A stretch of 64,000 nt of DNA from an uncultured Candidatus Saccharibacteria bacterium (GCA_964402895.1 CAYODR010000002.1:41666-105665), one strand, 5' to 3'. Numbered from the stretch's first letter, positions 23,761 through 44,710 are shown. Notes: generated by a model not told the origin, from the sequence alone. Program-made: numbers and translations.

Positions 23761-23764
23761 TTAA

Positions 23765-23800
23765 AGCCGGAGACATAGTCTCCGGCTTTAATTATAAAAA
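23765..23800 (+). terminator. rho-independent terminator after rplT
   Basis: aaagccggagacatagtctccggcttta. Confidence 0.7.
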
Positions 23801-23971
23801 GCGCTGAAGTCTACTGACTCCAACGCTTTTTGTGAATGCTTGCTAAGGGGAAAGATTAAATTCCTAATTTAAATCCTTACCTCAGTTAAACTGAGGATTT
23901 TTCTGACTTTTTTTAACCATAGGCAATATTATATTTGGTTTAAGTAAACTATAGCACATATCTGAAAATAA

Positions 23972-24511
23972 TTAACTATTTTTAATTTTCTTAAGCAAAT
24001 TAAAGCTATTAGCATGAATACAATGCCCTAGATAAGAACTTACCTTAGGAATATCTTTGATTTGGATAAAACCATCTTTTTTATTCAAAATTTCATTATA
24101 AAAACTTTTAATATCCATTTTTAAATAAAAAAGTCTTTGCCTATTTACACCCCCGCGAGTAATAAAAAATCGCGCCCTCTTAAAAGCACGGTGTGTCCCC
24201 CTACCAATCCTATTGGCAAAAGAGCTATCCAAAAATTGTTTCTCAAAAATCTCTTCTATTTCATTACACAAAAGATGTTGAACTATCCTGTCCCTAAAAT
24301 CACTAGCAAAAACTTCCCTTGGTGCAGGATTTTTTACTACAAAACATATATGTCTAGATATTTTGTATTCCCCACTCTTTAATTCATTCAACAATTCTAA
24401 CAAATTAGCCTCACGATTTAATTCAAATTTTAAAGCATTTGTAGTATTTTTTTTATTTCTTATACATTGCTTATAAGCCATGTATAAATTTTTCATTGTA
24501 AAAATCGTCAT
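23972..24511 (-). CDS. DGR-type reverse transcriptase, C-terminally truncated (domains 1-3 only, no YxDD)
   Basis: 179 aa; NPAPREVFASDFRDRIVQHLLCNEIEEIFEKQFLDSSFANRIGRGTHRAFKRA matches the conserved DGR RT N-terminal block (FRDRVVHHALCN..E.IFE..F...SYA.R.GKGTH.AL.R); motif 3 YLKMDIKSFYNEI; ORF ends ~50 aa later. Confidence 0.75.
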   Translation of the reverse strand: MTIFTMKNLYMAYKQCIRNKKNTTNALKFELNREANLLELLNELKSGEYKISRHICFVVKNPAPREVFASDFRDRIVQHLLCNEIEEIFEKQFLDSSFANRIGRGTHRAFKRARFFITRGGVNRQRLFYLKMDIKSFYNEILNKKDGFIQIKDIPKVSSYLGHCIHANSFNLLKKIKNS

Positions 24512-24546
24512 ATAATAAATATATTAGACCAAGCAAAAAAAGAATA

Positions 24547-25338
24547 CTAGGCGGCACAGCGGACATACCTCCCATTAGTAACGCTATGCCTATTCACACT
24601 ACCATTATTGAAATTCTGGGGGTAAGCATAGGAACTAGAAGAAGAAGTAGAAGACCAGTAAGCGCCCGAAACAAAGGAAAGGTTCCCACTTTGTGCTCCA
24701 TAGTCATTGATAGCTTTTAGGATTTCAACAGATGGAAGTCTTTTACCAAGTGAAGCACAGGTATTGTTGGCATTAGCCCAATTTAAAAGTGTGGTACTAT
24801 CATTTATATCATTTGCATCTAATGTGATAACTCCTGTTGTGTCTACTCCGTAGTGTCTATTGTTGTAGTATACTGCCACACCGAAGTTTCTAGTCTCTAG
24901 GGAGTCTTCTGGGACATAGTGAGTATTTAATGTGGTATCTGGAACATTTGAAGTTCTAACAACACATCTGATATTTCCTGCTCCTGCAATACTTACGAGT
25001 GCATCTATCATGGGCTGTATTGATGAGTGTGGTGATATACCTGTTTTGTTGTATGCACAAAGTCCTGCAAATGTACCATTGTCTAGGTGGTATAGTTGTG
25101 CTTGAGTTTGAAGATTCTTTAGATTTGATTTGATTGAAGCTACTCTACCACTTGTGCGAGCTGAGTTTAGTGATGCGATAACTACACCTGCGAGGATTCC
25201 GATGATTGCAATCACTACTAAAAGTTCAATGAGCGTGAAGGCTTTATTTTTATTATTAAAAATTTTTAGCGCAGAGAAACTCTTTTTAGAATAGCGCCCC
25301 TTCATTTGTATTTTTGGATGAAAGGTTAATTTTTTCAT
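24547..25338 (-). CDS. type IV pilin-like protein with C-terminal FGE/C-type-lectin-fold domain carrying a DGR variable-region scaffold
   Basis: Start at MKKLTFHPK (25338). Prepilin N-terminus NNKNKAFTLIELLVVIAIIGILAGVVIASLNSA. C-terminal C..LGKRLPSVEIL...GAYWSSTSSSSSYAYPQNFNNGSVNRHSVTNGRYVRCAA ends the ORF. Stop is 35 nt upstream of the DGR RT ORF. Confidence 0.75.
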   Translation of the reverse strand: MKKLTFHPKIQMKGRYSKKSFSALKIFNNKNKAFTLIELLVVIAIIGILAGVVIASLNSARTSGRVASIKSNLKNLQTQAQLYHLDNGTFAGLCAYNKTGISPHSSIQPMIDALVSIAGAGNIRCVVRTSNVPDTTLNTHYVPEDSLETRNFGVAVYYNNRHYGVDTTGVITLDANDINDSTTLLNWANANNTCASLGKRLPSVEILKAINDYGAQSGNLSFVSGAYWSSTSSSSSYAYPQNFNNGSVNRHSVTNGRYVRCAA

Positions 25339-25549
25339 GTTTTTATTATAACATAGATATTTTATAAAAAGTACAATATACTTACCTTGATAAAAACAAC
25401 AAAATTCCAGTATTAGGTTTATTTTTTCCATAATCCTATCATTTTAGCTATTTAATCCTATCATAATGATAGGATTAGTAAAAAAATTTTAAGCTTTATA
25501 TTTATTAAATAAACTTGCATATGATAATATCATATGATAATATCATACT

Positions 25550-25759
25550 ATGACCACACTTTCAGTCCCCCTTACAGCAGAATTAGCTAATCATGTAGAA
25601 AAGTTAGTAGAACTTGGTTATGGCTCAAATAAAGCTGATGCTGTCCGCAAAGCAATACAGGCTGCAGCTGAAGATCAGGCTGTCCAGGCAATACTAAAAG
25701 CTGCGAAAGAAACTCCACTTAGAGGGAATATTCGTGATTTAGCAAATAAAATAATTTAG
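25550..25759 (+). CDS. type II antitoxin (ParD-like RHH)
   Basis: 69 aa; LTAELANHVEKLVELGYGSNKADAVRKAIQ resembles ParD; 2 nt before toxin gene; upstream 24-bp palindrome taatcctatcataatgataggatta and 13-nt direct repeat. Confidence 0.55.
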   Translation: MTTLSVPLTAELANHVEKLVELGYGSNKADAVRKAIQAAAEDQAVQAILKAAKETPLRGNIRDLANKII

Positions 25760-25760
25760 A

Positions 25761-26033
25761 ATGAAATCTATTATTTATGAGATAGAATATACACCTAGTT
25801 TTCTTAGAACATTTAAAAGACTTAACCCTCGTCTCCAAGAGGAAATAGAGGATACTTTAGAAAAACTTAAATATTCAACTAACCATGAAAAATTAAAAGT
25901 TTATAAACTAAATGGTAGATTAAAAAGTTTCTATAGTTGTTCAGTAAATTATAAATATAGAATTATTTTTGAATTTAAAAAAAATAAAATTCTACTTATT
26001 ATAAATTCTGGTGATCATAGTATATATAACTAG
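25761..26033 (+). CDS. type II toxin, RelE/ParE family
   Basis: 90 aa; ...KLNGRLKSFYSCSVNYKYRIIFEF... conserved RelE/ParE core. Confidence 0.7.
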   Translation: MKSIIYEIEYTPSFLRTFKRLNPRLQEEIEDTLEKLKYSTNHEKLKVYKLNGRLKSFYSCSVNYKYRIIFEFKKNKILLIINSGDHSIYN

Positions 26034-26035
26034 AA

Positions 26036-27145
26036 TTATAATTTAGTTTTCAAAGAAACTATCTTTTCGTATGTTTGATTTATCCTATCTATAGATATTT
26101 CTCCATTTTGAACTGCATCATATATCATTTTTCTAGCTTCAAAGTATGAATCTGGATTGTACTCCGAAATATTATTTGAAAGTACGATTATATCTACTCC
26201 GGCATTGATAGCAAGTACTAATGCATTTTTTCTGCCGAAATTATCAGTGATAGCTTTCATATCCATATCATCACTTATTACAAGTACATCATCACAGCCA
26301 ATATTTTTAAGTACATCTAGATGTTTTTTAGAAAGAGTTGCTGGATAAACATCATCTACCTTACGATTAAATACATGTCCTACCATGATAGCTGAAAGCC
26401 CTGCCTTACAAGCTCTTTCAAATGGAACAAGCTCGTACTGCTTATAAGTATTCGTAATATCTGTAAAACCTTTATGGCTATCGGATAGCGCGCTCCCATG
26501 CCCAGGAAAATGTTTACCGACTGGCATAATGCCAGCATCAGAAAGCCCGTTTGCAAAATTTATTCCTTTTATAGATACAACACTTTGAAGGTGTGAAAAT
26601 GCGCGCCCTACAGCTCCGATAGCAGGACTTTTAGGATTTACTCTTACATCTAAACTTGGAGCAAAATTCATATTAAATCCTAAATATTTTAAGGTGGTGC
26701 CTAAATTATAAGCTATATTTTTTACAGCTAAATCCGTAAAAGATCCGAGTACAAAAGCTGAGGGCGTTGTGTAGTATCCTGGAATAGTTTTTAATCTACT
26801 CACACGCCCGCCCTCTTCATCTATACTAATGAATGGCTTGGTCTTAGATAGGGAAATTATATCTGCATTTAACTTTCTTACTTGTTCATAGTCTTTGATA
26901 TTGCGAATGTACTTTTTAGTTGGAGTATCATAATCAAAAAGTATTACTCCTCCAAGATTTGTTTCTGTGAGTGCGCGTTTTAAATCAGGAGCACTATCAA
27001 TATCAAAACCTCGAAATCCAACAATAAACATCTGGTCTATCCTATCTTGAATAGAGACTTCGCTTGAAGCAAATGAAACACTAAAATGAAAACTAAATAC
27101 AAATAAAGAAACAAGTAGTGACTTAATAAAATTCATACCTTTCAT
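26036..27145 (-). CDS. glycoside hydrolase family 3 (NagZ-like beta-N-acetylhexosaminidase), secreted
   Basis: Signal peptide; GVILFDYD, KHFPGHGSALSDSH catalytic region of GH3 N-terminal domain. Confidence 0.8.
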   Translation of the reverse strand: MKGMNFIKSLLVSLFVFSFHFSVSFASSEVSIQDRIDQMFIVGFRGFDIDSAPDLKRALTETNLGGVILFDYDTPTKKYIRNIKDYEQVRKLNADIISLSKTKPFISIDEEGGRVSRLKTIPGYYTTPSAFVLGSFTDLAVKNIAYNLGTTLKYLGFNMNFAPSLDVRVNPKSPAIGAVGRAFSHLQSVVSIKGINFANGLSDAGIMPVGKHFPGHGSALSDSHKGFTDITNTYKQYELVPFERACKAGLSAIMVGHVFNRKVDDVYPATLSKKHLDVLKNIGCDDVLVISDDMDMKAITDNFGRKNALVLAINAGVDIIVLSNNISEYNPDSYFEARKMIYDAVQNGEISIDRINQTYEKIVSLKTKL

Positions 27146-27158
27146 TATAGTATGAATC

Positions 27159-27779
27159 TTACTTAATCTCCAAAACTTTCTTTCTTAGAGAAGATTTTAT
27201 CTCTTCAAAACTTATCTGCATTTGATTTTTATAAATAATCTCTTCCTTTTCTATATCATCAAAATATACTAACGACTTTAAGATAAGATTAGTATCAAGA
27301 GTAGGTAGTTTTTCTTTTGAATACTTTAAAACATCTGAAAGAGTAAAATCTTTCAAAATAAAATACATATCTACATAATCCTTCATCGCACTACGACTAG
27401 AGATGGCGGAGCATTTCATACAAGCAATATCTAAAATAGAAGCCATTTTAAAATAATCTGTGTTAACAAATGGCTTAATCATCTTGTATTTATAAGACAT
27501 AAAACTTATTTTAATCTCATTGTCTACAATAATTCCTAAAGTATTTTTTTCTTCTTGTACCTTTACTATTCTATCTAACCCAAAAAGTTCTGATATATGA
27601 TCAAACAATTTTTCAGTATCTATGTCTACTTCAGTAAAAAAATCAAAATCAATACTATCTCTATGTCCTATCTGTAAAGCCAATGCTGTGCCCCCAGCTA
27701 AATAAAAATTATATACAGTAATACCTCCAAGTATTGGCAGTATATCTTTTCTCTTCTGATCTAAAATATCCCAATGCAT
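27159..27779 (-). CDS. nucleotidyltransferase AbiEii/AbiGii toxin family protein
   Basis: 206 aa; YLAGGTALALQIGHRDSIDFDFF motif typical of AbiEii (DUF1814). Confidence 0.7.
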   Translation of the reverse strand: MHWDILDQKRKDILPILGGITVYNFYLAGGTALALQIGHRDSIDFDFFTEVDIDTEKLFDHISELFGLDRIVKVQEEKNTLGIIVDNEIKISFMSYKYKMIKPFVNTDYFKMASILDIACMKCSAISSRSAMKDYVDMYFILKDFTLSDVLKYSKEKLPTLDTNLILKSLVYFDDIEKEEIIYKNQMQISFEEIKSSLRKKVLEIK

Positions 27780-27783
27780 AAAA

Positions 27784-28050
27784 TTAAAATCTACTTTTTA
27801 TTGCTGAATCAATACCGTATTTCATTGACCAGTAATTTAAAGATTTTTTATTTAATTCATAAGATTTTTTATTAAATACCTTTTTAATATCATCTTTTGA
27901 GTAGACATCTTGTAATTTATCAGTAGCCTTTTTGGTGCCCAAATTAAGCACATTTAATATAATGCGCTCTTTATCTTTCTCTAAATCCATTTTGGATATA
28001 TCATAAGACCATAAAAACGGCTTAAATTCTACTGGAACAGATCTCTTCAT
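27784..28050 (-). CDS. hypothetical protein, putative AbiEii partner (antitoxin candidate)
   Basis: 88 aa, 4 nt upstream of AbiEii gene; no clear AbiEi wHTH recognised. Confidence 0.3.
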   Translation of the reverse strand: MKRSVPVEFKPFLWSYDISKMDLEKDKERIILNVLNLGTKKATDKLQDVYSKDDIKKVFNKKSYELNKKSLNYWSMKYGIDSAIKSRF

Positions 28051-28153
28051 AATTACATTATACCATAAAATAGCTGTATTTTCTAATGAAAAACCAATTA
28101 ACCAAATGAAATTAACTAGAAATATACTTGATATTTTATGGGGTATTAAAGTG

Positions 28154-28192
28154 TAATACTAAATGTGAGTATTATACTCACATTTAGTATTA
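28154..28192. promoter_or_regulatory. 39-bp perfect palindrome (19+1+19) in promoter region of AbiE-like operon
   Basis: taatactaaatgtgagtat t atactcacatttagtatta. Confidence 0.55.
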
Positions 28193-28278
28193 TGAGAAAA
28201 GATACAATATTAAAAAATACTTATGTCTAAAAACACTAGTTTTGAATTTTAAAATTCATTTTTTATAAAAAGGGTAGG

Positions 28279-28388
28279 TCCTCCGCAAACTCTCTTCTGT
28301 GCAGACTTGCGGAGCACGACTGGTGCGAGCACAGGAATTTTTTAGCAAAAAAATATCCGTGTCTGTACAGAAGAGAGTTTGCGGAGGA
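28279..28388. repeat. 28-bp inverted repeat (1 mismatch) flanking 54-nt spacer
   Basis: tcctccgcaaactctcttctgtgcagac ... gtctgtacagaagagagtttgcggagga; GC-richer than surroundings. Confidence 0.7.
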
Positions 28389-28415
28389 ATTCTTTCTAAT
28401 TTTAATTATTTAAAA

Positions 28416-28440
28416 AACCGCTCCAGCGGTTTTTTAAATA
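28416..28440 (-). terminator. terminator downstream of map
   Basis: aaaaaaccgctccagcggttttttaaa. Confidence 0.6.
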
Positions 28441-29201
28441 ATAGTGAGTACTTCAGGATATCCATCTTCTTTAATGAGAACAGTATGTTCAAAATGAGCA
28501 CTTTTTGAATTATCTGTTGTTTTAAGAGTATATCCATCATCAAGCATGATGAAGTCTTCGCTACCACGAGAAAGCATTGGCTCTATTGCTATAGCCATCC
28601 CCGGTCGAAGTTTATCACCTCGTCCCTTCTTACCATAATTCGGCACATACGGATCTTCGTGTATCTCTCTACCTACTCCATGCCCCGAAAGCCCGCGCAT
28701 AATACCAAGTCTATGTGGCTTTACATATTGCTCCACTGCATATCCAATATCTCCAATAGTTGCTCCTGGTACAATAGCTGAAATAGCTTCATCAAGCGCA
28801 CCCTTAGTGATAGAGATGAGATGTTTATCTTTACTACTTATTTCTCCTACTCCAACTGTGATTGCATGATCTAAAAATACATTTTTATATTTTAATCCCA
28901 AATCAAGAGCAATAACATCTCCTTCTTTAAGAGCATAATCAGATGGAATACCGTGCACCACCTCACTATTTACTGAAGTAATGAGTGTAGCAGGATATGG
29001 CCTATCTGCCCCATCGGGTTTGTAATTTAAAAATGCCGGAGTACAATCAGCTTCATTGATAAGTTTGAAAGCAATATCATCAAGTTCTTTTGTAGTAATC
29101 CCCACCCTTACATGTGTTGCCACATCAGACAAAATACGCGCAAGGACTTTACCTCCTTCACGCATTTTTTCTATTTCTTCTTTTGTTTTAATTATAATCA
29201 T
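28434..29201 (-). CDS. map: type I methionine aminopeptidase
   Basis: 255 aa; metal ligands in DLG..Y, HG.GH, EPM motifs; follows adk as in spc operon. Confidence 0.9.
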   Translation of the reverse strand: MIIIKTKEEIEKMREGGKVLARILSDVATHVRVGITTKELDDIAFKLINEADCTPAFLNYKPDGADRPYPATLITSVNSEVVHGIPSDYALKEGDVIALDLGLKYKNVFLDHAITVGVGEISSKDKHLISITKGALDEAISAIVPGATIGDIGYAVEQYVKPHRLGIMRGLSGHGVGREIHEDPYVPNYGKKGRGDKLRPGMAIAIEPMLSRGSEDFIMLDDGYTLKTTDNSKSAHFEHTVLIKEDGYPEVLTII

Positions 29202-29839
29202 AAAATATCTTTAAAACTTTTTCTTTGTTCTACTTCTTCTTTCCATTTGTTTAGTCCGATAGAATAAGCTATATCATTGTGTACCTCTTCTATAGTTTGC
29301 TCTCCGTATATATCATGTGTAGTTATAAGCGGACTCTCTCTAAGCATATCTATTGCAGGTTGTACGCTAGTATGAAACCACCTAATACGAGACCATATAT
29401 CTTCATCTGGAGCCTTATCATCTACTCTACCGCGAATCTTGATATGATCATATGCCCACTCATCACTTACAGATAAATTGATAACATGTGCTTTCCAACC
29501 ATAAAATTTGATAGCTGAAAGTAAAAGTGGTACTTCTGTAGTCTTTCTGGGTGTACCGTCCATAAAGACAAGACCAGTGCCAGTGTATCCTTCTATGAGA
29601 CTAGATGCCCACATATGAACACCCAGAAAAGATGGTGATAATTTACCTGTATTTACGATATCACGAAGTCTTCTCCCCGTATATGAATCTGTATCTACAA
29701 GTGCACGAAACTTTTTTCCAGTCTCAGCAATAAATACAGCCTTTGTAGGATCTATTTCTTTTATTTTCTTTTCAAGCAAGGCAACCTGAGTTCCTTTTCC
29801 TGCTCCACTTCTTCCTACAAAAATATATACACCATCCAT
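29198..29839 (-). CDS. adk: adenylate kinase-like protein
   Basis: P-loop GRSGAGKGTQ; between secY and map (conserved position). Confidence 0.7.
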   Translation of the reverse strand: MDGVYIFVGRSGAGKGTQVALLEKKIKEIDPTKAVFIAETGKKFRALVDTDSYTGRRLRDIVNTGKLSPSFLGVHMWASSLIEGYTGTGLVFMDGTPRKTTEVPLLLSAIKFYGWKAHVINLSVSDEWAYDHIKIRGRVDDKAPDEDIWSRIRWFHTSVQPAIDMLRESPLITTHDIYGEQTIEEVHNDIAYSIGLNKWKEEVEQRKSFKDIL

Positions 29840-29862
29840 GGTGTATATATTATAACAATATT

Positions 29863-31134
29863 TTAGTATTCTTGCATTGAGACCTGAGCGTCTATTCTGC
29901 GGATAAGATCAATCACTACAGATACTGTAATAAGTAGTGATGTACCTCCGACAGCAAAGGCTGTAATACCTGTCATATTTTGAACTATGATAGGCAGTAC
30001 CGCCACAATACCTAGAAAGATTGAACCGACAAGTGTAATGCGAGTCACTACATTTGCTAAGAACAATCTAGTAGGGTCTCCTGGTCTAACACCCGGGACA
30101 AATGCGCCATTCTTTTGAAGATTTGTTGCGATTTGTTTTGGATCAAAAGTTATTGCTGTATAGAAGTATGTAAAGAATACAACTAAAGCAAAGTAAACGA
30201 TTCCATAAGACCATTGATTTTGTAGGAAAGACCCCACAGCCTGAGCAATATTTAATATCACTGGTGAAGAAGAGTTTTGTAGAATCGTCACCAAAAATTG
30301 AGGAAATACGAGCATAGAAGATGCGAAGATGATAGGCATCACACCTGCTTGAGTAAGTCTAAGTGGAATATATGTATCACTGCCACCAAGCTGACGAATA
30401 CCACGAACCTGTCTTGCGTAAGTTACCCCTACCGGTCTTTCTGCTTCATAAATATATACTACTCCTGCGATAACTATCAGACCAATAGCAAAGTATGCAA
30501 GTGCCATCGGAATCTGATCTACTGTGAAAGTAAATAAGAATTGTGAAATACTAGTTGGAAGAGATGCAATAATTCCTCCCATAATAAGAAGTGAAACACC
30601 ATTACCAATACCATATTCATTGATAAGCTCACCGAGCCACATCAAAAGCACAGATCCAGCTGTAATGATTAAGATATTTACAATCATAGCGCTCATAGAC
30701 AGCGCGCCAATTGCACCTTGAGTTTGAAGAAACTTCAAAAATGCAAAAGATTGAACTAGTGAGATAGGGACTGAAAGAAGTCTAGTATACTGACCGAATT
30801 TCTTTCTACCAATTTCTCCACTTTCTTGCATAAGCTCTTTTAGAGATGGAGTCATCATACCCATCACCTGCATTATGATAGATGCAGTAATGTAAGGACT
30901 CACACCAAGCATTACGATAGAGAAAGAAGAAAGTCCTCCCCCGGTTAAAGTACTAAACAAACTTAGAAGTTGGTTATTCGCCAAAAATTCTGAAAGCTGT
31001 GTAGTGTTTACTCCAGGTACAGGAATTGTTCCAAGAAATCGAAAAATAACCAGTATAAAAACTACAAACAATACGCGATTGCGAAGTGATTTATCTGTAA
31101 ATACTGTTTTAATTTTTCTAAAAAAACTGTTCAT
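29863..31134 (-). CDS. secY: preprotein translocase subunit SecY
   Basis: 423 aa, 10 TM, follows rplO. Confidence 0.9.
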   Translation of the reverse strand: MNSFFRKIKTVFTDKSLRNRVLFVVFILVIFRFLGTIPVPGVNTTQLSEFLANNQLLSLFSTLTGGGLSSFSIVMLGVSPYITASIIMQVMGMMTPSLKELMQESGEIGRKKFGQYTRLLSVPISLVQSFAFLKFLQTQGAIGALSMSAMIVNILIITAGSVLLMWLGELINEYGIGNGVSLLIMGGIIASLPTSISQFLFTFTVDQIPMALAYFAIGLIVIAGVVYIYEAERPVGVTYARQVRGIRQLGGSDTYIPLRLTQAGVMPIIFASSMLVFPQFLVTILQNSSSPVILNIAQAVGSFLQNQWSYGIVYFALVVFFTYFYTAITFDPKQIATNLQKNGAFVPGVRPGDPTRLFLANVVTRITLVGSIFLGIVAVLPIIVQNMTGITAFAVGGTSLLITVSVVIDLIRRIDAQVSMQEY

Positions 31135-31138
31135 ATTA

Positions 31139-31579
31139 TTAACCCAATACCTTTCCTCCAGCAGCTTCTACTTTTGCTTTTGCTTTATCAGTGATTTGAC
31201 AATCTCTAATGATTACAGAAGTGTTGATTTCTCCATTTGATAGAATCTTAACTTGAGGATAGTGTCCTTTTACTCTTTTTACAAGACCCGCTTCGAAAAG
31301 AGTCTTTGGAGATACCACTTGATTCTTTTCAAATTTTGCTTCAATTTGACTCACATTCACAGGTGATGGTTTGATAGCAAAGGCTTTGTTGATATTTTTA
31401 CCACGACCGCGAAGCTTTGGAAGCTTTTTGATCATATCTCTAATCTCTGGACGAATCTTATGTCCAGCACGAGCTCTTTGACCTTTTGTACCACGACCAC
31501 TAGTTTTACCTCTAGTTCCGCCACGGCCAACTATTTTTCCTTTTTTATTTGCGTTTGTGCGTTTAATAGTGTGTAACAT
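31139..31579 (-). CDS. rplO: 50S ribosomal protein L15
   Basis: 146 aa; GRGGTRGKTSGRGTKGQ glycine-rich N-terminus. Confidence 0.9.
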   Translation of the reverse strand: MLHTIKRTNANKKGKIVGRGGTRGKTSGRGTKGQRARAGHKIRPEIRDMIKKLPKLRGRGKNINKAFAIKPSPVNVSQIEAKFEKNQVVSPKTLFEAGLVKRVKGHYPQVKILSNGEINTSVIIRDCQITDKAKAKVEAAGGKVLG

Positions 31580-31590
31580 AATTCTACTCC

Positions 31591-32235
31591 TTATTTTTTA
31601 GCTTCAAAATTTTCTGCGGGCTTAGGTGCAGAAAAAATATATTTAGTTGAAATTGGCTCCAGTGCTTTCATTACTGCTCTTGCTGTATTTAACTTGTTTT
31701 TACTTCCAGAAATAACTTTACCAGTTACATCTTTAAGTCCTGCCATAAGAGTGATTTCTCTGATAGCCGCACCTGTTACAAGTCCTTTACCTTTGTTTGG
31801 GAAAAGAATTACTTTACTTGCACAGTATTTTGCACTGATATCATGAGGGATTGAAAAAGCTTCTGTTCTGTTTATTTTGATAGCATTTTTCTTTGCATCT
31901 TTAAGAGCTTTTTGAATAGCAAGTGCTGTATCGTTTCCTTTACCAGTACCTACTCCAACTACTCCAAGGTTTTTGTCTCCAATAACCATTGAAACAGCAA
32001 AACTCATACGACGACCTCCAGCAACCACACGAGTTACTCTACGGATGTCTAAGATTTTATTATCAACTTCTTTTGGACGTTCTTGAAAACGGTTGTCTCC
32101 TCTTTGTGGGCGACCACCTCTTCTGTCTCCTCCCTGACCTTGTCCAGGACCTCTAGAAGAATTGAAGTTTCTTCTAAAACCTGTATTTGCACCTGCTGGT
32201 GCTGTTTTTGTATTTGTATCTGTTGTTGTAGTCAT
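31591..32235 (-). CDS. rpsE: 30S ribosomal protein S5 with ~55-aa RG-rich N-terminal extension
   Basis: Core ...DIRRVTRVVAGGRRMSFAVSMVIGD...GTGKG; L30 gene absent between rpsE and rplO. Confidence 0.9.
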   Translation of the reverse strand: MTTTTDTNTKTAPAGANTGFRRNFNSSRGPGQGQGGDRRGGRPQRGDNRFQERPKEVDNKILDIRRVTRVVAGGRRMSFAVSMVIGDKNLGVVGVGTGKGNDTALAIQKALKDAKKNAIKINRTEAFSIPHDISAKYCASKVILFPNKGKGLVTGAAIREITLMAGLKDVTGKVISGSKNKLNTARAVMKALEPISTKYIFSAPKPAENFEAKK

Positions 32236-32238
32236 ATC

Positions 32239-32586
32239 TTAAAAATTTAATCCTGCTTCTCTTGCAGCATCAGCCAATACTTTGATTCGACCTGTATACT
32301 TGAAACCATTACGATCAAATACTACTGATTTGATACCTTTTTGAGTTGCAAGCTTTGCAATTTCTTTTCCTACTGTTTCAGCATTTTCGATATTTGTACC
32401 TTTTTTACTTTTAATATCACTTGCTGAAGCAAGGGTCATACTGCGAGTATCATCAATCAACTGCACATAAATATGAGCACTTGATCTAAATACAGTCATG
32501 CGTGGACGCTCTTCTGTACCAGAAATTTTAGCACGGATTTTGCGCTTGATACGAAGTTTTTTATCTTGTGTACTTTGTCGTGACAT
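32239..32586 (-). CDS. rplR: 50S ribosomal protein L18
   Basis: 115 aa; operon position; conserved C-terminal region. Confidence 0.9.
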
Positions 32587-32599
32587 ATATTTATTTTAA

Positions 32600-33133
32600 T
32601 TAAGCGGTTTTCTTACCAGCTTTGCGGCGGATAACCTCGTTATCATATCTAAAACCCTTACCTTTATAAGGTTCTGGTTTTTTGAGTGCGCGCGTTGAAG
32701 CTGCGAATTCTCCGACCTTTTCTTTATCAATACCAGAAATGGTAATATTATTTTTCTCAGCAGTAACTTCTAAACCTTCTGGTATAGATACTACCACAGG
32801 ATGAGAAAAACCAAGAGCAAGATGTAATTCTGTACCCTTAACTTCACTTTTAAAACCTACCCCTTCAAGAATAAGCTTCTTAACATATTTCTGATTTACA
32901 CCAGCAATCATGTTTTTAACATGTGAAGCATAAGTTCCCCAGATTGCACGAGCAAATGGGTCATCACCTTTTTGTGAGAAAGAAATCATTCCTTCTTCTA
33001 TATTGATATTAACTGCATCTCTGAAAGATTTTTCTAGAGTACCAAGAGGTCCTTTAGCACGAAAAATACCATTTTCGTATGAAACTTCTGTTCCTGCTGG
33101 TATTACTATTTGTTGTTTTCCTATTCTACTCAT
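32600..33133 (-). CDS. rplF: 50S ribosomal protein L6
   Basis: Start trimmed to MSRIGKQQIVIP (33133), 5 nt after rpsH stop; longer ORF would overlap rpsH. Confidence 0.85.
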   Translation of the reverse strand: MSRIGKQQIVIPAGTEVSYENGIFRAKGPLGTLEKSFRDAVNINIEEGMISFSQKGDDPFARAIWGTYASHVKNMIAGVNQKYVKKLILEGVGFKSEVKGTELHLALGFSHPVVVSIPEGLEVTAEKNNITISGIDKEKVGEFAASTRALKKPEPYKGKGFRYDNEVIRRKAGKKTA

Positions 33134-33137
33134 AAGC

Positions 33138-33527
33138 CTACCAAATTTTAAATAATACCTCTCCTCCGACCTGTTCTTTCTTTGCTTGCTTATCACTCAA
33201 AATTCCTTTTGGAGTTGATAATACAGTCAAACCATATCCATTTTTAACTGGACGAATTTCTTTTACGCCAGCATAGATACGACGAGAAGGTTTTGAAACA
33301 CGAGCTACGTCGTGAATTTTTGCGCCTTTTTCGTTGTACGCTAGTGCGATTTCAATAACGGGAACGTTATTTTTTTCTGTCTTTTTTGAAACGTTCTCTA
33401 CGAAGCCATGCTCTTTCAAGCATTCTGCAATAGAAAACTTCATCTTTGAAAAAGGTACAACAACACGGTCTTTTGACACCATTGATGCATTTTTCATTGA
33501 TACTAACATGTTTGCGATTGGATCCAT
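33138..33527 (-). CDS. rpsH: 30S ribosomal protein S8
   Basis: 129 aa; MDPIANMLVSMKNA N-terminus typical of S8. Confidence 0.9.
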   Translation of the reverse strand: MDPIANMLVSMKNASMVSKDRVVVPFSKMKFSIAECLKEHGFVENVSKKTEKNNVPVIEIALAYNEKGAKIHDVARVSKPSRRIYAGVKEIRPVKNGYGLTVLSTPKGILSDKQAKKEQVGGEVLFKIW

Positions 33528-33541
33528 ATATTTTTACTTTT

Positions 33542-33727
33542 TTACCAAGAAGACTTGCGAATGCCCGGAATCATGCCCTCATTAGCAAGTTCACGGAAGC
33601 AAATACGACATAGTCCAAAATCACGCATAAAGCCATGTCGACGACCACAGCGGAAGCAGCGATTCACAGCGCGAGTACTATATTTTGGTGCCTTTTGGGC
33701 ACGAGCTATAACTGATTTCTTTGCCAT
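33542..33727 (-). CDS. rpsZ: 30S ribosomal protein S14 type Z (zinc-binding)
   Basis: 61 aa; CxxC...CxxC zinc ribbon (CFRCGR...CRIC). Confidence 0.9.
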
Positions 33728-33978
33728 AATTCTTTTAATTTAAATAATTCTCAATGCAATATCTCACACCCCCTTCTTAGACATCATTAAAAATGAAGAG
33801 AAAGAAAGAAATATGGATTACAAAGAGTGCTAAAATACTAACAAAATAAAGCCTTTTTGTCAATTTGAGAACCTTAAATTATTTTATAAAACAAGAAAAA
33901 TCTATTTTTATTCCAAATGCTCCGTATCTTGCCTATGTATTTGGAAGAGAATGTATTATGTCTTATGTATAAAGAATG

Positions 33979-34797
33979 CTAGGCGGCACAGCGTACATGG
34001 CCGGAACTGGTAGTAGCGCCCCTGTACACACCACCATCAGGGAAATACTGGTTGTAAGCGTAGGAGCTTGCTGACAGAGTAGACGACCAATAACCGTCTG
34101 CAAGGAACCCAAGGTTTGTCGTCTCAGATTCACCTTGCGCTCCATAGTCATTGATAGCTTTTAGTATTTCTATTGATGGAAGTCTCTTGCCTGCTGTAGC
34201 GCATCTGTCCATAGCTACTTGCCAATTAGTAGCACCACCATTATCTGCAGAATCAAGAGTGACAACTCCTGTAGTGTCAACTGCGTAGTGTGTTTCGTTA
34301 AAATATACAGCTACACCGAAGTTCTTAGTCTCAAGAGAATCTGCTGGTATAAAATGTGTAGCTCCAGTACTTGGTACAGAAGCAGTACGTACAATACATC
34401 TAACATTGTTTGCTCCTGCAATACTTGTAAGTGCATCTATCATAGGCTGGATTGACGAATGGTATCCTTGAGGAGTACCTAGGGCTGCATAATTATTTAG
34501 ATTTGAAACTTGTCCGCATAATCCTGCAAAAGTACCATTGTCTAGGTGGTATAGTTGTGCTTGAGTTTGAAAGTTTTTAAGATTTGATTTGATTGCTGCT
34601 ACTCTTCCACTTGTTCTGGCTGAGTTTAAAGATGCGATGACGACTCCTGCAAGGATACCTATGATTGCTATTACTACTAGAAGCTCAATGAGCGTGAAGG
34701 CTTTATTTTTATTATTAAAAATTTTTAGCGCAGAGAAGCTCTTTTTAAAATAGCACCCCCCTATTTGTATTTTTGGATGGAAGGTTAATTTTTTCAT
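33979..34797 (-). CDS. type IV pilin-like protein with C-terminal FGE/CLec-fold DGR variable-region scaffold (paralog of 24547..25338)
   Basis: N-terminal ~115 aa nearly identical to the other copy (MKKLTFHPKIQIGGCYFKKSF...KAFTLIELLVVIAIIGILAGVV). C-terminal ...GKRLPSIEIL...DGYWSSTLSASSYAYNQYFPDGGVYRGATTSSGHVRCAA. Inserted between rpsZ and rplE. Confidence 0.75.
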   Translation of the reverse strand: MKKLTFHPKIQIGGCYFKKSFSALKIFNNKNKAFTLIELLVVIAIIGILAGVVIASLNSARTSGRVAAIKSNLKNFQTQAQLYHLDNGTFAGLCGQVSNLNNYAALGTPQGYHSSIQPMIDALTSIAGANNVRCIVRTASVPSTGATHFIPADSLETKNFGVAVYFNETHYAVDTTGVVTLDSADNGGATNWQVAMDRCATAGKRLPSIEILKAINDYGAQGESETTNLGFLADGYWSSTLSASSYAYNQYFPDGGVYRGATTSSGHVRCAA

Positions 34798-34851
34798 GTT
34801 TTTATTATAACATTTATATTTTTTTCAACAAAGACAAAATGTAAAAAACAA

Positions 34852-34876
34852 AAAACCGCTTGATGCGGTTTTTTGT
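34852..34876 (-). terminator. terminator downstream of rplE
   Basis: aaaaaaccgcttgatgcggttttttg. Confidence 0.6.
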
Positions 34877-35410
34877 TTAAGCCTCTTTCTTAAAAGGCAT
34901 TCCTAGATATTCAAAGAATTTTGTTGCTTCTGATTTATCTTTTGCACTTGTTACAAGTGTGATAGATAGACCAAATACATCTCTTAAATCTTCATCAGAA
35001 GTTTCTGGGAAGATAGTGTTTTCTTTAATACCCAAAGTCATGTTTCCAATACTGTCTACTGACTTTTTATCAATTCCTCTAAAGTCTTTTGTACGAGGAA
35101 GCGCTATATGAATAAGCTTATCAAGGAAATGAAGCATTCTTGCTCCGCGTAGTGTTACAGTTAGACCGATTGGATCACCCTCACGAATCTTAAAACTTGC
35201 AACTGATTGTTTTGCTACACGAAGAGATGGTTTTTGTCCTGTGATTTTTGCTAGACGGTCAGCGATAAGATTATTTCTTTCTCTGTCCTTTTTCATACCA
35301 CTACCAGTACCACTTGAAACTACGATCTTTAGAAGTTTTGGAGCAGAAAGTTTGTTTTTATAACCGAAAACTGAATTTGTGTTTTCTTGTTTTGTTTTAG
35401 TAATTTGCAT
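34877..35410 (-). CDS. rplE: 50S ribosomal protein L5
   Basis: 177 aa; operon position after rplX. Confidence 0.9.
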   Translation of the reverse strand: MQITKTKQENTNSVFGYKNKLSAPKLLKIVVSSGTGSGMKKDRERNNLIADRLAKITGQKPSLRVAKQSVASFKIREGDPIGLTVTLRGARMLHFLDKLIHIALPRTKDFRGIDKKSVDSIGNMTLGIKENTIFPETSDEDLRDVFGLSITLVTSAKDKSEATKFFEYLGMPFKKEA

Positions 35411-35414
35411 AAGC

Positions 35415-35723
35415 CTATTTTATAGTTTGATTACTTTTCTTTGCAAAACGAACGACCTTTCCGTCTTCAACTCTTTTTCCAATACGTGTTCCTGAGCCTG
35501 ACTTACTATCTACAAGCATTACGTTTGATGCATGGATTGGAGCTTCTACCTCTACAATAGAACCTTGTTGTCCACGAGTACGAGCTTTCATATGTCTTTT
35601 AGTTTTGTTTACTCCATCGATAATAACACGATCTGTATCTCTAAAAACTTTTGCTACTGTACCTTTCTCGCCCTTATTTTTACCTGCGATAACTATTACA
35701 TTGTCTCCTTTCTTGATTTTCAT
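35415..35723 (-). CDS. rplX: 50S ribosomal protein L24
   Basis: MKIKKGDNVIVIAGKNKGEKG KOW motif. Confidence 0.9.
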   Translation of the reverse strand: MKIKKGDNVIVIAGKNKGEKGTVAKVFRDTDRVIIDGVNKTKRHMKARTRGQQGSIVEVEAPIHASNVMLVDSKSGSGTRIGKRVEDGKVVRFAKKSNQTIK

Positions 35724-38768: not shown

Positions 38769-39282
38769 CTAATTTGCTATTTTTACATAGTTTCCAGGAA
38801 TACTATTATTTAAAGAGGATTTTCTACAATTAAGATAGGTATCATATGACATATCTTCGCCAGATCCAGATTCTAGTCTAACAAAAATTATATATCTATC
38901 TACAGAACCAACGGGCGTACACCCCGTATAATCTCTTCTGTAATAAGCATACTCATGTGAATTTGGTAAACTTGAAATATATGGAGATAAAGAGTTAACT
39001 AGATTAGTTCTACCTGAATTACTTAAAAATCCTAAAGTTTCAGGGTAAATACCATTTTCAGCAAAATGCATTTCAAGTGCTGTTTGAATATTTTTAGCAG
39101 TAGCAAGCCTTGCGGCATCTCTCGCTTTACCTCTCGCACTATTTAAGCTTGCTATCACAACTGTTGCGAGTATTCCAATAATTGCTATCACTACTAATAG
39201 TTCTATCAGAGTGAAGGCTCTACTTTTTAGTGTATACCCCCCCCCCTATTTGTCTTTTAGAGTTTGCTGGTAAAATTTTCAT
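38769..39282 (-). pseudogene. type IV pilin-like gene, leader-peptide region frameshifted by a 10-nt poly-G tract (phase-OFF)
   Basis: ATG 39282 encodes MKILPANSKRQIGGG then the 10-G run (39237..39246) puts the pilin body (AFTLIELLVVIAIIGILATVV... from 39191) in another frame; removing one G gives MKILPANSKRQIGGGYTLKSRAFTLIELL. Confidence 0.65.
39237..39246. repeat. homopolymeric C10/G10 tract
   Basis: tataCCCCCCCCCCtattt. Confidence 0.85.
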
Positions 39283-39319: not shown

Positions 39320-39970
39320 TCAAATAGGTCCATTAGACATCCTATAATGAATAGCACCTGTAGATGTATAAGTTATTTTCCCACATCTTCTTTTTGTATT
39401 ATTATCCTCTGAAGATTCGTGCGGATCAAAAATATCATTAAGTTTATTAAAAATATCTAATAAAGAACTCTCTCCTGATGAAATAAAAAGATTAACTCCA
39501 TTAGTGGGAGCATTTGAAGTTGAGGCACAGGTTGAAACCTCATGGAAATTACCATCATTATCATACGCATAATTATTCCCATTATGAGGAAATGGAAACA
39601 CGGGCGCAGAAGAAAGATAATTTGAAAAATTAGTAGTATTTGAAGATATTGCTTGAGCTATAGATGGATTCGATGTACTTGAAGTTAAAGCATAAGTACA
39701 ATAAGTAGAAGCATGGCTATTTCTCTCTTTAGGCCAACAACCTGTTTCTAACAAAAGCATATTAAATGCCAATTCTATACTTCTTAGATCTGATGCAACT
39801 TTTGAAATTCTAGATTTCTCTCTTGCACTATTTAGACTTGCAATTACAACTGCAGCTAAGATTCCTATAATAGCTATCACTACTAGTAGCTCTATGAGGG
39901 TGAAAGCTTTTCTATAGGATGAATACCTAAATCTTATTTGCCTTTTAGAATCCGCCTGCAAATTTTTCAT
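39320..39970 (-). CDS. type IV pilin-like protein
   Basis: Start MKNLQADSKRQIRFRYSSYRKAFTLIELLVVIAIIGILAAVVIASLNSA; 216 aa; conserved upstream motif gtttttattataacat. Confidence 0.75.
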   Translation of the reverse strand: MKNLQADSKRQIRFRYSSYRKAFTLIELLVVIAIIGILAAVVIASLNSAREKSRISKVASDLRSIELAFNMLLLETGCWPKERNSHASTYCTYALTSSTSNPSIAQAISSNTTNFSNYLSSAPVFPFPHNGNNYAYDNDGNFHEVSTCASTSNAPTNGVNLFISSGESSLLDIFNKLNDIFDPHESSEDNNTKRRCGKITYTSTGAIHYRMSNGPI

Positions 39971-40133
39971 GTTTTTATTATAACATATAAAATACAAAGG
40001 TCCTTCGGGATCCATCTCCTAAAATGGAGATAGAAAAAGCTAGAGCATCAATGCTCTAATTTTTGTTTTTATATCTAAAAAATCTATTTATTGATATATT
40101 GATCTTTGGAATTTCTAACAAATACTAAAGCTT

Positions 40134-40238: not shown

Positions 40239-40259
40239 CTTTATTTCTTATACAAAACA

Positions 40260-40290
40260 AAAAAACCGCTGATGCGGTTTTTTGTTTAAT
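40260..40290 (-). terminator. terminator downstream of rplB
   Basis: aaaaaaccgctgatgcggttttttgtt. Confidence 0.6.
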
Positions 40291-42929: not shown

Positions 42930-43640
42930 CTATTTACCACATAAAACTCTTCGAATTAGCGTTTTATCCTCAAGAACAGTTGATCCATTATCAAGCCTAA
43001 TCCTAAAAGCTGTATCAGCACTAACAGAAGTCCCTGACCAATATTGAACACTTGATGCATAATTTGCATTGTGAATATCAAATAAAGCTTTCATAGAAGA
43101 TACTCCTGGAACCCTTTTGCTAAGTGACGCACAATAAGCCAATGCCCCATCAAAAGTATAACTGGAAACAGAGCTTGCACTATCTAACTCTAAAATCCCA
43201 TGAGGGTCAGCAGTATAATTAATATCTCTATATAGCACGCCTATACCGAAATCTATTGAATTTAGAGTAGCGCTCCCGATATAACAATTTGCATTTGATA
43301 TAACATTTAGAGAATCTAAAATTGAAACAATTTTTTGATCATTACACAAACCAGCATAAGAACCATTATTATCTAAATAATACACATGTGCTTGAGACAC
43401 CGCATTTCTTAAATTAGATTTAATCGCTGCTATTCTCCCTCTATCTCTTGCACTGTTTAATGACGCTATCACTACCCCCGCAAGTATTCCTATAATTGAG
43501 ATGACGACTAAGAGTTCAATGAGAGTGAAAGCTTTACTTTTTATTGTATACCTCCCCATAGAATTTTTGAAAAATTGATTAACTTTTTCATTGGTTTTAT
43601 TATAACATTTAATAATTTCAAAAAGAAACCTTATCTTCAC
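42930..43640 (-). CDS. type IV pilin-like protein (start uncertain: 43640 or internal MGRYTIKSK at 43559)
   Basis: KAFTLIELLVVISIIGILAGVVIASLNSARDRG...; conserved MKKL-type leader ATG (43591) is out of frame at the GGGGAGG tract. Confidence 0.7.
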   Translation of the reverse strand: MKIRFLFEIIKCYNKTNEKVNQFFKNSMGRYTIKSKAFTLIELLVVISIIGILAGVVIASLNSARDRGRIAAIKSNLRNAVSQAHVYYLDNNGSYAGLCNDQKIVSILDSLNVISNANCYIGSATLNSIDFGIGVLYRDINYTADPHGILELDSASSVSSYTFDGALAYCASLSKRVPGVSSMKALFDIHNANYASSVQYWSGTSVSADTAFRIRLDNGSTVLEDKTLIRRVLCGK

Positions 43641-44538: not shown

Positions 44539-44710
44539 CCTAATTATAAAGTCCTTTCTTAATTTCTCTATTATGAATAGGAACTATGATTAAGGGGTGA
44601 CCACTTTTTTTAAATATTTTATGACTTCCTTTTTGTCTGATAAATACAAAACCTGATTTTTCTAAAATCTTTACTAAATCCTTATCTAAAATCGGATGAA
44701 ACTTAGGCAT
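44539..44710 (-). pseudogene. hicA: HicA family toxin gene with +1 frameshift
   Basis: MPKFHPILDKDLVKILEKSGFVF then frame shifts; HicA core RQKGSHKIFKKSGHPLIIVPIHNREIKKGLYN continues in next frame; overlaps hicB stop. Confidence 0.6.

What the first reader, a model, noticed from the sequence alone, without database searches (positions are those of the whole stretch)
33979..34100. Second DGR-target-like VR located inside the ribosomal protein superoperon, 9.5 kb from the RT
The rpsZ-rplE junction normally has no insert, yet here it holds a full pilin-CLec gene ending in ...GYWSSTLSASSYAYNQYFPDGGVYRGATTSSGHVRCAA with the same GC-rich 3' end (cgctgtgccgcctag, a plausible IMH) as the RT-adjacent copy. 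A remote second target implies trans-acting DGR diversification of multiple pilin tip domains.
Basis: partly seen in the sequence, partly recalled or inferred. Interest (0 to 1): 0.7.

Follow-up and report, generated by a model that had tools for sequence, protein, structure and literature searches.

The report
Remote hypervariable pilin-lectin gene; dead RT nearby
A pilus-subunit gene wedged between two ribosomal-protein genes of an ultra-small (CPR-type) bacterium ends in a 120-base stretch with the clear footprint of retroelement-driven hypermutation, but the reverse transcriptase 9.5 kb away is a gutted remnant, so the diversifying machinery must lie elsewhere or be recently lost.

Summary
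Window 33979-34797 (- strand) encodes a 272-aa prepilin with a C-type-lectin (Lcl_C/DUF1566) C-terminus. It lies between rplE and rpsZ and shares a 23-nt 3' end with the RT-adjacent paralog P1.

The last 40 codons (33982-34101) behave as a DGR variable region. Three natural alleles of this locus differ at 29 sites, 27 of them at codon positions 1-2. Neighbouring housekeeping genes diverge mainly at position 3 (P down to 5e-15). VR divergence does not track genome divergence. Codon usage is atypical and adenine is depleted. A paralog on the same contig varies at the same codons.

The 'trans-acting RT 9.5 kb away' part fails. That ORF (23972-24511) lacks about 170 residues, including the YVDD catalytic core. 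The window holds no template repeat and no Avd. P1's 3' end occupies the slot where relatives carry the template repeat, which suggests a VR/TR recombination collapse.

P2 is therefore a remote or orphan target. Its template lies outside the window or is extinct. This is a new member of the known family of CPR multi-target DGRs with DUF1566 targets. The ribosomal-operon location and the cassette fossil are the unusual points.

The parts
33979..34797 (-). P2: prepilin-type protein with a C-terminal C-type-lectin (Lcl_C/DUF1566) domain, 272 aa
   Evidence: ORF. Pfam N_methyl E=2.2e-9 (above cutoff) and Lcl_C E=6e-7 (30.2 bits, below the 34.9 cutoff). TIGR02532. AF2 model pLDDT 84 with a long N-terminal helix. 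Best PDB match is 8q4e, the Lcl C-terminal domain (E=5.9e-5), followed by LOX-1 CTLDs.
33982..34101 (-). Variable region (VR2), last 40 codons of P2
   Evidence: Three alleles of this locus (window, L092, L001) differ at 29 sites: 27 at codon positions 1-2 and 2 at A-containing third positions. GC 56% and A 17%, against 39% and 34% in the gene body. Rare codons GCC, TCC, TCG, AGC and AGG are used.
33968..33993 (-). IMH-like invariant 3' block: CGCTGTGCCGCC-TAG-C-ATTCTTTATA (spans the stop codon)
   Evidence: Identical in window, L092, L093 and L094. L001 has T in place of the C after TAG. TGTGCCGCCTAGCATTCTTTATA also ends the VR of a paralog beside GAPDH in another genome (L090). 23 nt are shared with the P1 end.
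34639..34713 (-). Prepilin N-terminal cleavage/methylation motif (KA|FTLIELLVVIAIIGILAGVV...)
   Evidence: Pfam PF07963 covers residues 29-53. Part of a 137-nt repeat shared by five pilin genes in the window (family D1).
34846..34878 (-). Intrinsic-terminator-like hairpin directly after rplE, upstream of P2
   Evidence: 14 pairs followed by a T run. A near-identical copy lies at 40253-40287 ahead of pilin P4 (family D3).
33835..33863 (-). Promoter-like site (TTGACA-17-TAGTAT with TG) between the P2 stop and rpsZ
   Evidence: The region is 95-98% identical to L001.
24547..25431 (-). P1: paralogous pilin-Lcl_C gene. Its 3' end (24550-24669) is VR-like but its 3' flank is of the TR-to-RT spacer type.
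   Evidence: The P1 stop-to-RT spacer TAGTATTCTTTTTTTGCTTGGTCTAATATATTTATTATATG aligns with the TR-to-RT spacers of L085 and L002.
23972..24511 (-). Internally deleted DGR-clade reverse transcriptase remnant (179 aa)
   Evidence: It aligns to P0154 residues 1-65 and 234-279 only and to the L085 RT at residues 1-141 (81% identity) and 315-357. At DNA level about 600 nt of L085 (471-1068) is replaced by about 58 nt. No YxDD motif occurs in RT context anywhere in the window.

Best explanation
P2 is a genuine DGR variable-protein gene. It encodes a type IV pilin-like subunit whose C-terminal C-type-lectin (Lcl_C/DUF1566) domain ends in a 120-nt variable region. That region has been repeatedly rewritten by adenine-directed mutagenic retrohoming from a template repeat rich in AAY codons, and homing is anchored by the GC-rich invariant block CGCTGTGCCGCC-TAG-YATTCTTT.

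P2 is a remote target, one of several dispersed pilin-lectin paralogs in this CPR lineage. The gene sits stably between rplE and rpsZ, with a terminator upstream and a promoter downstream.

The RT-like ORF 9.5 kb away cannot drive the process. It is the fossil of a separate, collapsed cassette: the P1 VR is fused to the TR-RT spacer, probably by recombination between the VR and TR ends that removed avd and the TR, and the RT then lost its catalytic core.

Diversification of P2 in this genome therefore depends on a TR/RT outside the 64-kb window, possibly beside paralog P0002 on the same 106-kb contig. Otherwise it stopped only recently.

Shown: gene identity and fold, the allele pattern, the conserved 3' block, the RT deletion, and the absence of TR and Avd in the window. 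Inferred: the TR sequence, the IMH function of the 3' block, the collapse mechanism, and current activity.
For: (1) Domain and fold.

(2) Allelic series at the same locus. L092 is 92.4% identical to the window over 5.7 kb and L001 is 82% identical.
- VR against L092: differences by codon position 13/13/2, with 17 nonsynonymous and 2 synonymous codons. Nine housekeeping genes give 57/24/317, with 54 nonsynonymous and 299 synonymous. Fisher P = 5e-15 and 1e-11.
- VR against L001: 12/10/2 in the VR, 157/85/583 in housekeeping genes, P = 5e-10. Third positions changed in 2/40 VR codons against 583/1527 housekeeping codons, P = 3e-6.
- VR identity (77% and 80%) is unrelated to genome distance.

(3) Putting A at every variable site gives ANNYWSTTQSTSSYAYNQNFNNGNVNRNATTNNNNVRCAA, with 12 AAY codons.

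(4) Paralog P0002, on the same contig but not in the window, differs from P2 in the VR at 14 residues. All 14 fall in the same variable codons.

(5) Sister pilins P0006 and P0008 are identical over a run of 158 residues (61-218). They differ at about 15 of the last 43.

(6) The VR is adenine-depleted and GC-rich, and it uses codons that make up 1-3% of their families in this genome.

(7) The 3' block TGTGCCGCCTAGCATTCTTTATA recurs at a VR in a different genomic context (L090).

(8) Contigs of the same strain from two other assemblies start at 33997 and 33993. That is exactly the last variable/invariant boundary of the VR.

(9) Relatives of the RT clade carry canonical VR-Avd-TR-RT cassettes with YWSST-type DUF1566 VRs (L003, L084).

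(10) RT remnant and cassette collapse.
Against: - No TR for VR2 was found. It is absent from the window and from JGI metagenomes and IMG/VR. The rest of the source genome could not be retrieved.
- No intact RT from the 106-kb contig appeared in the top 120 RT hits. This is uninformative beyond rank 120.
- L092 and L001 share non-A bases at many variable sites, including TAC TAT near the 3' end. Not every allele is therefore an independent full homing product, and the inferred all-A TR may be wrong at a few sites. If the TR has TAC TAT there, the window allele carries 2 non-A changes.
- Thirteen adenines in the VR are invariant in all three alleles. This requires purifying selection on scaffold residues.
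- The transition/transversion ratio does not differ from background.
- No hairpin lies downstream of the VR.
- The contig breaks could reflect a 30-nt repeat shared with a paralog rather than population heterogeneity.
Confidence: 0.8

Rival explanations
1. One reading: P1 and P2 are two targets of the one DGR whose RT lies at 23972-24511, and that RT acts in trans over 9.5 kb.
For: The RT-like ORF is adjacent to P1. A 23-nt 3' block is shared by P1 and P2. Multi-target DGRs are known (PMC6642488).
Against: The RT lacks residues equivalent to 142-314 of the closest full-length RT, including YVDD. The window has no TR and no Avd. P1 and P2 VRs differ at many non-adenine and synonymous sites: 80/120 identical, and only 10 of 40 mismatches fall on A, so they do not derive from one current TR.
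Confidence: 0.03
2. VR2 is a frozen relic. The lineage's DGR(s) are extinct in this genome, and the VR merely preserves the footprint of past homing.
For: The only RT in 64 kb is dead. Many RTs of this clade carry in-frame stops or truncations. No TR was found anywhere searchable.
Against: VR2 shows no synonymous decay against L001 or L092, although third-position divergence elsewhere is 18-38%. Assemblies of the same strain break at the VR edge. The conspecific pair P0006/P0008 differs only in the VR, which argues for recent activity in the clade. 42 kb of the contig and the remaining contigs are unseen.
Confidence: 0.35
3. There is no retroelement involved. The pattern comes from positive selection on binding-site residues, together with gene conversion among pilin paralogs (pilE/pilS-like antigenic variation).
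For: The pilin bodies are mosaic. L001's gene at this locus has a P0002-like centre. At least three close paralogs exist in the genome.
Against: Selection or conversion does not explain near-zero third-position change in 40 codons alongside 32% change at positions 1-2. It does not explain the NNY periodicity, the adenine depletion and rare codons, the conserved post-stop block, or the RT-clade cassettes with the same VR type in relatives.
Confidence: 0.05

Closest known systems
Cell-encoded DGRs of Patescibacteria/CPR (DGR clade 2 of Roux et al. 2021, PMC8144416; Paul et al. 2017, cited from PMC10221324) with DUF1566/CLec targets
   Same: The RT remnant and its full-length relatives are named Paceibacterota, Pacebacteria or Nomurabacteria by their sources. 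The target VR is at the C-terminus of a DUF1566-type CLec domain. AAY-type variation is seen. Relatives have the Avd-TR-RT order.
   Different: The local cassette has lost avd, the TR and the RT core. The target studied here is 9.5 kb away, inside the spc ribosomal operon, and does not match the local VR-like copy.
Multi-target DGRs with remote VRs (e.g. Stenotrophomonas sp. SKA14, two TRs and six VRs, mostly DUF1566 proteins; PMC6642488)
   Same: Several dispersed paralogous DUF1566 targets occur per genome. P2, P0002 and P1 are on one contig. L089, L090 and L092 come from one sample, beside clpB, GAPDH and rpsZ respectively.
   Different: The TR-VR pairing could not be demonstrated here. The targets are prepilins.
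Pilus-associated DGR targets. Bacteroides type V pilus adhesins (bioRxiv 10.1101/2024.11.15.621889). 'G-type pilin' domains and putative pilin structures linked to DUF1566 are listed among DGR targets (PMC11661182, PMC6642488).
   Same: A retroelement diversifies the ligand-binding module of a pilus subunit.
   Different: This is a type IV (class III signal peptide) pilin fused to Lcl_C, not a type V pilus tip protein. Whether it is a major or a tip subunit is unknown.
Legionella pneumophila Lcl C-terminal domain (PDB 8q4e; PMC11162425)
   Same: It is the best structural match to the P2 C-terminal domain (E=5.9e-5) and corresponds to Pfam Lcl_C.
   Different: 20% identity. Lcl is a collagen-like adhesin, not a pilin, and is not reported there as DGR-diversified.
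Bordetella phage BPP-1 DGR (Mtd; IMH/IMH*, VR-proximal hairpin); from general knowledge
   Same: The VR is at the 3' end of a CLec-fold gene. A GC-rich invariant element lies at the VR end. VR-type and TR-slot-type flanks diverge just after it (TAG-Y-ATTCTTTATA against TAG-T-ATTCTTTTT).
   Different: No hairpin or cruciform lies downstream. No cis TR or RT is present. The host is cellular, not a phage.

Membership tests
DGR variable region / target gene | VR at the 3' end of an ORF, within a C-type-lectin-fold (or Ig-fold) ligand-binding domain | tested here: met
   Lcl_C covers residues 186-270. The AF2 model gives 8q4e and LOX-1 CTLDs as best matches. The VR is residues 233-272.
DGR variable region / target gene | Allelic variation confined to sites that correspond to template adenines (NNY codons), with invariant scaffold positions | tested here: met
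   Three alleles give 29 variable sites, 27 at codon positions 1-2. P = 5e-15 and 5e-10 against housekeeping genes. Paralog P0002 varies at the same codons.
DGR variable region / target gene | A cognate template repeat (TR) whose mismatches to the VR fall almost only on TR adenines | tested here: not met
   No TR in the 64-kb window by an ungapped A-tolerant scan or by blastn with the inferred TR. None in JGI or IMG/VR.
DGR variable region / target gene | A DGR-clade reverse transcriptase with intact catalytic motifs in the same genome | tested here: not met
   The only RT in the window is a 179-aa remnant lacking motifs 4-7 and YVDD. The rest of the genome is not testable.
DGR variable region / target gene | IMH: a GC-rich element at the VR 3' end, shared with the TR end (IMH*) | tested here: inconclusive
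   CGCTGTGCCGCCTAGYATTCTTT is invariant across alleles. It is shared with the P1/TR-slot copy and with another VR locus, L090. Without the TR its IMH role is inferred.
DGR variable region / target gene | Accessory Avd and a VR-proximal hairpin (present in many DGRs, not all) | tested here: not met
   tblastn with two clade Avd proteins gave no hit in the window. There is no stable hairpin downstream of VR2.
Type IV pilin / pseudopilin (class III signal peptide) | N-terminal cleavage/methylation motif followed by a hydrophobic alpha-1 helix with Glu5 | tested here: met
   PF07963 scores 36.9 bits against a 21.2 cutoff. TIGR02532 scores 30.8 against 16.3. Sequence is KA|FTLIELLVVIAIIG. The model has a helix at 36-87. 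Residue -1 is Ala rather than the usual Gly, read from the sequence.
Lcl_C / DUF1566 domain | Match to PF07603 at the gathering threshold | tested here: inconclusive
   30.2 bits against a 34.9 cutoff (E=6e-7). The database's precomputed Pfam lists PF07603 for this protein. The structural match to 8q4e supports membership.

The most novel reading that the evidence does not exclude
A DGR-diversified type IV pilin-lectin gene is stably embedded in the spc ribosomal operon across species. It keeps being rewritten even though the only nearby cassette has collapsed. This would mean that RT and TR are supplied in trans from a distant or mobile cassette. It would also mean that DGR cassettes in CPR turn over by VR/TR (IMH/IMH*) recombination, leaving orphan VRs that can be re-adopted.
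Probability: 0.3. Interest if true: 0.55.

Novelty: new member of a known kind. Interest (0 to 1): 0.4.

Why it matters
CPR bacteria are thought to depend on attachment to host cells. Type IV pili are their main appendages, and DGRs are unusually common in them. This locus gives a concrete, testable case: a pilin whose lectin tip is hypervariable between closely related natural populations. It also documents how a DGR cassette decays, through fusion of the VR to the TR flank and deletion of the RT core, while remote targets keep a fresh hypermutation footprint. That matters for DGR surveys, which call targets only next to intact RTs and would miss both features. The position inside the ribosomal superoperon, conserved across populations down to about 82% nucleotide identity, is an oddity worth noting. 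It is not a new mechanism.

Tried and rejected
- **TR search in the window.** An ungapped A-tolerant scan for VR1, VR2 and VR3 and blastn with the inferred TR returned only the VRs themselves.
- **Recovering the rest of the source contig or genome.** Exact-protein look-ups of P2, P0002 and P0006 were not on record. The genome-contig scan with P0002 found nothing. The scan with a family alignment returned only generic pilins from Planctomycetota and similar phyla. Cluster look-up gave no accessions.
- **Collection scans with DNA patterns.** CGCTGTGCCGCCTAGYATTC gave no hits in JGI or IMG/VR. The relaxed TGTGCCNCCTAGNATTCTTT gave four chance hits in unrelated GC-rich or non-pilin contexts. The scaffold pattern and the L085 RT found nothing in IMG/VR. 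The RT alignment was too diverse to scan.
- **RT profile search.** No full-length RT from a 106,003-bp contig appeared in the top 120. This is not informative beyond that rank.
- **Hairpin downstream of the VR.** Not present.
- **Rfam.** Nothing relevant in 23600-35500.
- **Transition/transversion ratio and tri-allelic sites.** Not different from background, so these were dropped as evidence.
- **P1's end as the working TR for P2.** Rejected: 30 of 40 mismatches are not on A, and P1's end has only 19% A.
- **P3, P4 and P5 pilins as DGR targets.** Rejected: ordinary GC content (32-37% for P3 and P4) and no IMH-like end.

Full report
**1. Observation**

The window is AT-rich (34% GC). It carries the S10-spc ribosomal gene cluster on the minus strand. 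ORF 33979-34797 (-) encodes a 272-aa protein ending ...DGYWSSTLSASSYAYNQYFPDGGVYRGATTSSGHVRCAA.

This gene lies between rplE (34877-35410) and rpsZ (33542-33727). The identity of those neighbours follows from the colinear locus L001, whose genes carry Pfam L5 and S14 labels.

A paralog, P1 (24547-25431), sits 36 nt upstream of an RT-like ORF (23972-24511), 9,468 nt from P2. Both pilin genes end CGCTGTGCCGCCTAG. The shared block is actually 23 nt, CGCTGTGCCGCCTAG[C/T]ATTCTTT, and it occurs only at these two places (0.00 expected by chance).

**2. What the gene is**

- Sequence: P2 has a prepilin cleavage/methylation motif (PF07963, 36.9 bits; TIGR02532) and a C-terminal Lcl_C/DUF1566 match. The Lcl_C match has E=6e-7 but falls just below Pfam's cutoff.
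- Structure: an AlphaFold model built on 80 homologs (pLDDT 84) shows the long pilin alpha-1 helix and a C-terminal alpha/beta domain. The best PDB match for that domain is the Legionella Lcl C-terminal domain (8q4e, E=5.9e-5), followed by LOX-1 and NK-receptor C-type-lectin domains.

'Pilin-CLec' is therefore correct. The window holds five prepilin genes. Only P1 and P2 have the GC-rich 3' end.

**3. The 3' 120 nt is a DGR-type variable region**

Three natural alleles of this same locus could be compared:
- the window;
- L092, from SRR23593165, 92.4% identical over 5.7 kb;
- L001, from SRR21722026, 82% identical over 8.4 kb.

| Comparison | Region | Differences by codon position (1/2/3) | Nonsynonymous / synonymous codons | Fisher P |
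|---|---|---|---|---|
| Window vs L092 | last 40 codons | 13/13/2 | 17 / 2 | 5e-15 (positions), 1e-11 (codons) |
| Window vs L092 | nine housekeeping genes | 57/24/317 | 54 / 299 | |
| Window vs L001 | last 40 codons | 12/10/2 | 16 / 2 | 5e-10 (positions) |
| Window vs L001 | housekeeping genes | 157/85/583 | 185 / 493 | |

For window vs L001, third positions changed in 2/40 VR codons against 583/1527 housekeeping codons (P = 3e-6). The two third-position differences in the VR are GCA/GCG and TCA/TCT/TCC, so both are adenine-containing.

VR identity (77% and 80%) does not scale with genome distance.

The switch in pattern occurs at codon 233.

Writing A at every variable site gives a template-like sequence encoding ANNYWSTTQSTSSYAYNQNFNNGNVNRNATTNNNNVRCAA, with 12 AAY codons. 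This is the classic DGR template design.

Supporting observations:
- The VR has 17% A and 56% GC, against 34% and 39% in the gene body.
- It uses GCC, TCC, TCG, AGC and AGG, each 1-3% of its codon family in the window's housekeeping genes.
- Paralog P0002 is on the same 106,003-bp contig but outside the window. It differs from P2 in this region at 14 residues, all within the same variable codons.
- In the sister subfamily, P0006 and P0008 are identical over a run of 158 residues. They differ at about 15 of the last 43.

**4. IMH-like end**

The block CGCTGTGCCGCC-TAG-C-ATTCTTTATA is invariant in the window, L092, L093 and L094. L001 has a T after the TAG. TGTGCCGCCTAGCATTCTTTATA also terminates the VR of a paralog that lies beside GAPDH in another genome (L090). 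The post-stop bases therefore travel with the VR rather than with the rpsZ leader.

Copies that sit in the TR slot read TAG-T-ATTCTTTTT... instead: the P1 end here and the start of L085. This resembles an IMH/IMH* pair, but the role is inferred. No stable hairpin follows the VR.

**5. The RT 9.5 kb away is a fossil**

- The 179-aa ORF aligns with full-length clade RTs (357-390 aa) only at its two ends: P0154 residues 1-65 and 234-279, and the L085 RT at residues 1-141 (81% identity) and 315-357.
- At DNA level, about 600 nt of the L085 RT is replaced by about 58 nt. The LPIGN, SQFF and YVDD motifs are gone.
- No other RT, no Avd and no TR exist in the 64 kb.

Relatives show the canonical order VR-Avd-TR-RT, with the TR ending 32-43 nt (L002, L084) to about 200 nt (L003) before the RT start codon. 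In the window that TR slot is occupied by the 3' end of the intact P1 gene. P1's post-stop spacer aligns with the TR-RT spacers of L085 (78% identity over 470 nt) and L002. P1's end has VR-like composition (19% A).

The simplest reading is a deletion by recombination between the identical VR and TR ends. That would remove avd and the TR and fuse the P1 VR to the TR flank. A separate internal RT deletion followed. An assembly collapse of the VR/TR repeat cannot be excluded for the first event, but it would not explain the RT deletion.

P1 cannot be the template for P2. They are 80/120 identical, only 10 of the 40 mismatches fall on P1 adenines, and many synonymous non-A differences exist.

**6. 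Where is the template?**

It was not found. The source genome is not in the retrievable collections, and pattern scans of JGI metagenomes and IMG/VR gave nothing relevant.

Two Logan assemblies hold this strain. SRR16797981 is 100% identical over L091 and L093. SRR23005863 is 99.7% identical. Their contigs start at 33997 and 33993, immediately 3' of adenines at the VR/invariant-block boundary. This fits either within-population VR heterogeneity or a 30-nt repeat shared with a paralogous VR. Both are expected for a DGR target family. Read mapping would distinguish them.

Caveats on the inferred template:
- L092 and L001 share non-A bases at several variable sites, including TAC TAT at codons 265-266. 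The all-A template inference may therefore be wrong at a few sites, and not all alleles are independent full homing products.
- Thirteen scaffold adenines never vary, which implies selection.
- The transition/transversion ratio is uninformative.

**7. Context**

The pilin insert at rplE-rpsZ is conserved in at least three lineages (L001, L092, and the window strain with L093 and L094). It is bracketed by a terminator-like hairpin after rplE (34846-34878) and a promoter-like site before rpsZ (33835-33863). The flanking intergenic DNA is 95-98% identical to L001, while coding DNA is about 82% identical.

Related pilin-Lcl_C paralogs sit beside clpB, GAPDH or an RT in other contigs. Dispersed remote targets are therefore the rule in this lineage.

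**8. Comparison and novelty**

Several elements are already described:
- cell-encoded DGRs restricted to Patescibacteria (PMC8144416);
- DUF1566 as the commonest DGR target domain, and multi-VR systems (PMC6642488, PMC11661182);
- pilin-type target domains (PMC11661182);
- DGR diversification of pilus adhesins in Bacteroides (bioRxiv 10.1101/2024.11.15.621889).

P2 is therefore a new member of a known kind.

Less ordinary are three points: its fixed position inside the spc operon, the clean natural allelic series, and the neighbouring cassette caught in collapse. That collapse makes P2 a remote or orphan VR whose template is unseen. Whether diversification is still running in this genome is roughly even odds.

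Noticed in passing
window 38769-39230, 39320-40015, 42930-43640 (plus 24547-25431, 33979-34797): Five prepilin-type genes are in the window, four of them interspersed in the S10-spc ribosomal cluster. All share a 137-nt N-terminal repeat and an upstream box TGTTATAATAAAAAC-ATG. That box is an extended -10 only 6 nt before the start codon, which suggests leaderless transcripts.
   Followed up: partly
window 34844-34878 and 40253-40287: Near-identical terminator-like hairpins (AAAAAACCGC...GCGGTTTTTT) lie just upstream of pilin inserts P2 and P4. The ribosomal superoperon is apparently cut into separate units at each insert.
   Followed up: partly
window 44540-44927 (-): A HicA/HicB toxin-antitoxin pair and other small ORFs are inserted between rpsJ and rplC. 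The Pfam labels come from the 100%-identical contig L091.
   Followed up: no
L002 620-622; L003 1770-1772; L084 10001-11601: RT genes of this DGR clade repeatedly carry in-frame stop codons or are split into several ORFs, while otherwise aligning full-length. Many closest homologs in the protein database are 130-230 aa fragments. This could be pseudogenisation, recoding or assembly error; it is unresolved.
   Followed up: no
L002 4-27; L084 7441-7467: A conserved motif GTGTCT[TG]AA[AT]TTTGGGGTACCTG is associated with two DGR loci. It lies directly 5' of the visible TR in L002 and upstream of the target gene in L084. It is absent from the window.
   Followed up: partly
window 33860-33979 and 34811-34960 vs L001: The intergenic DNA flanking the pilin insert is 95-98% identical between two lineages whose coding DNA is about 82% identical. 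This implies strong constraint (promoter, terminator or leader) or recent exchange of the segment.
   Followed up: no
L001 2069-2839 vs window 34190-34780: The pilin at the rplE-rpsZ junction in L001 has a central body nearly identical to paralog P0002, not to P2. Identity to P2 dips to 30-50% in three segments. This points to mosaicism or gene conversion among pilin paralogs.
   Followed up: partly
L085 1-1873 (also L086-L088): Contigs from five samples all start at the same base, 55 nt before an intact RT, within a ...CATGTTCGTTGTGCCTCCTAG end. The RT is followed by another pilin-Lcl_C-like gene (P0013) that lacks the IMH-like end.
   Followed up: partly
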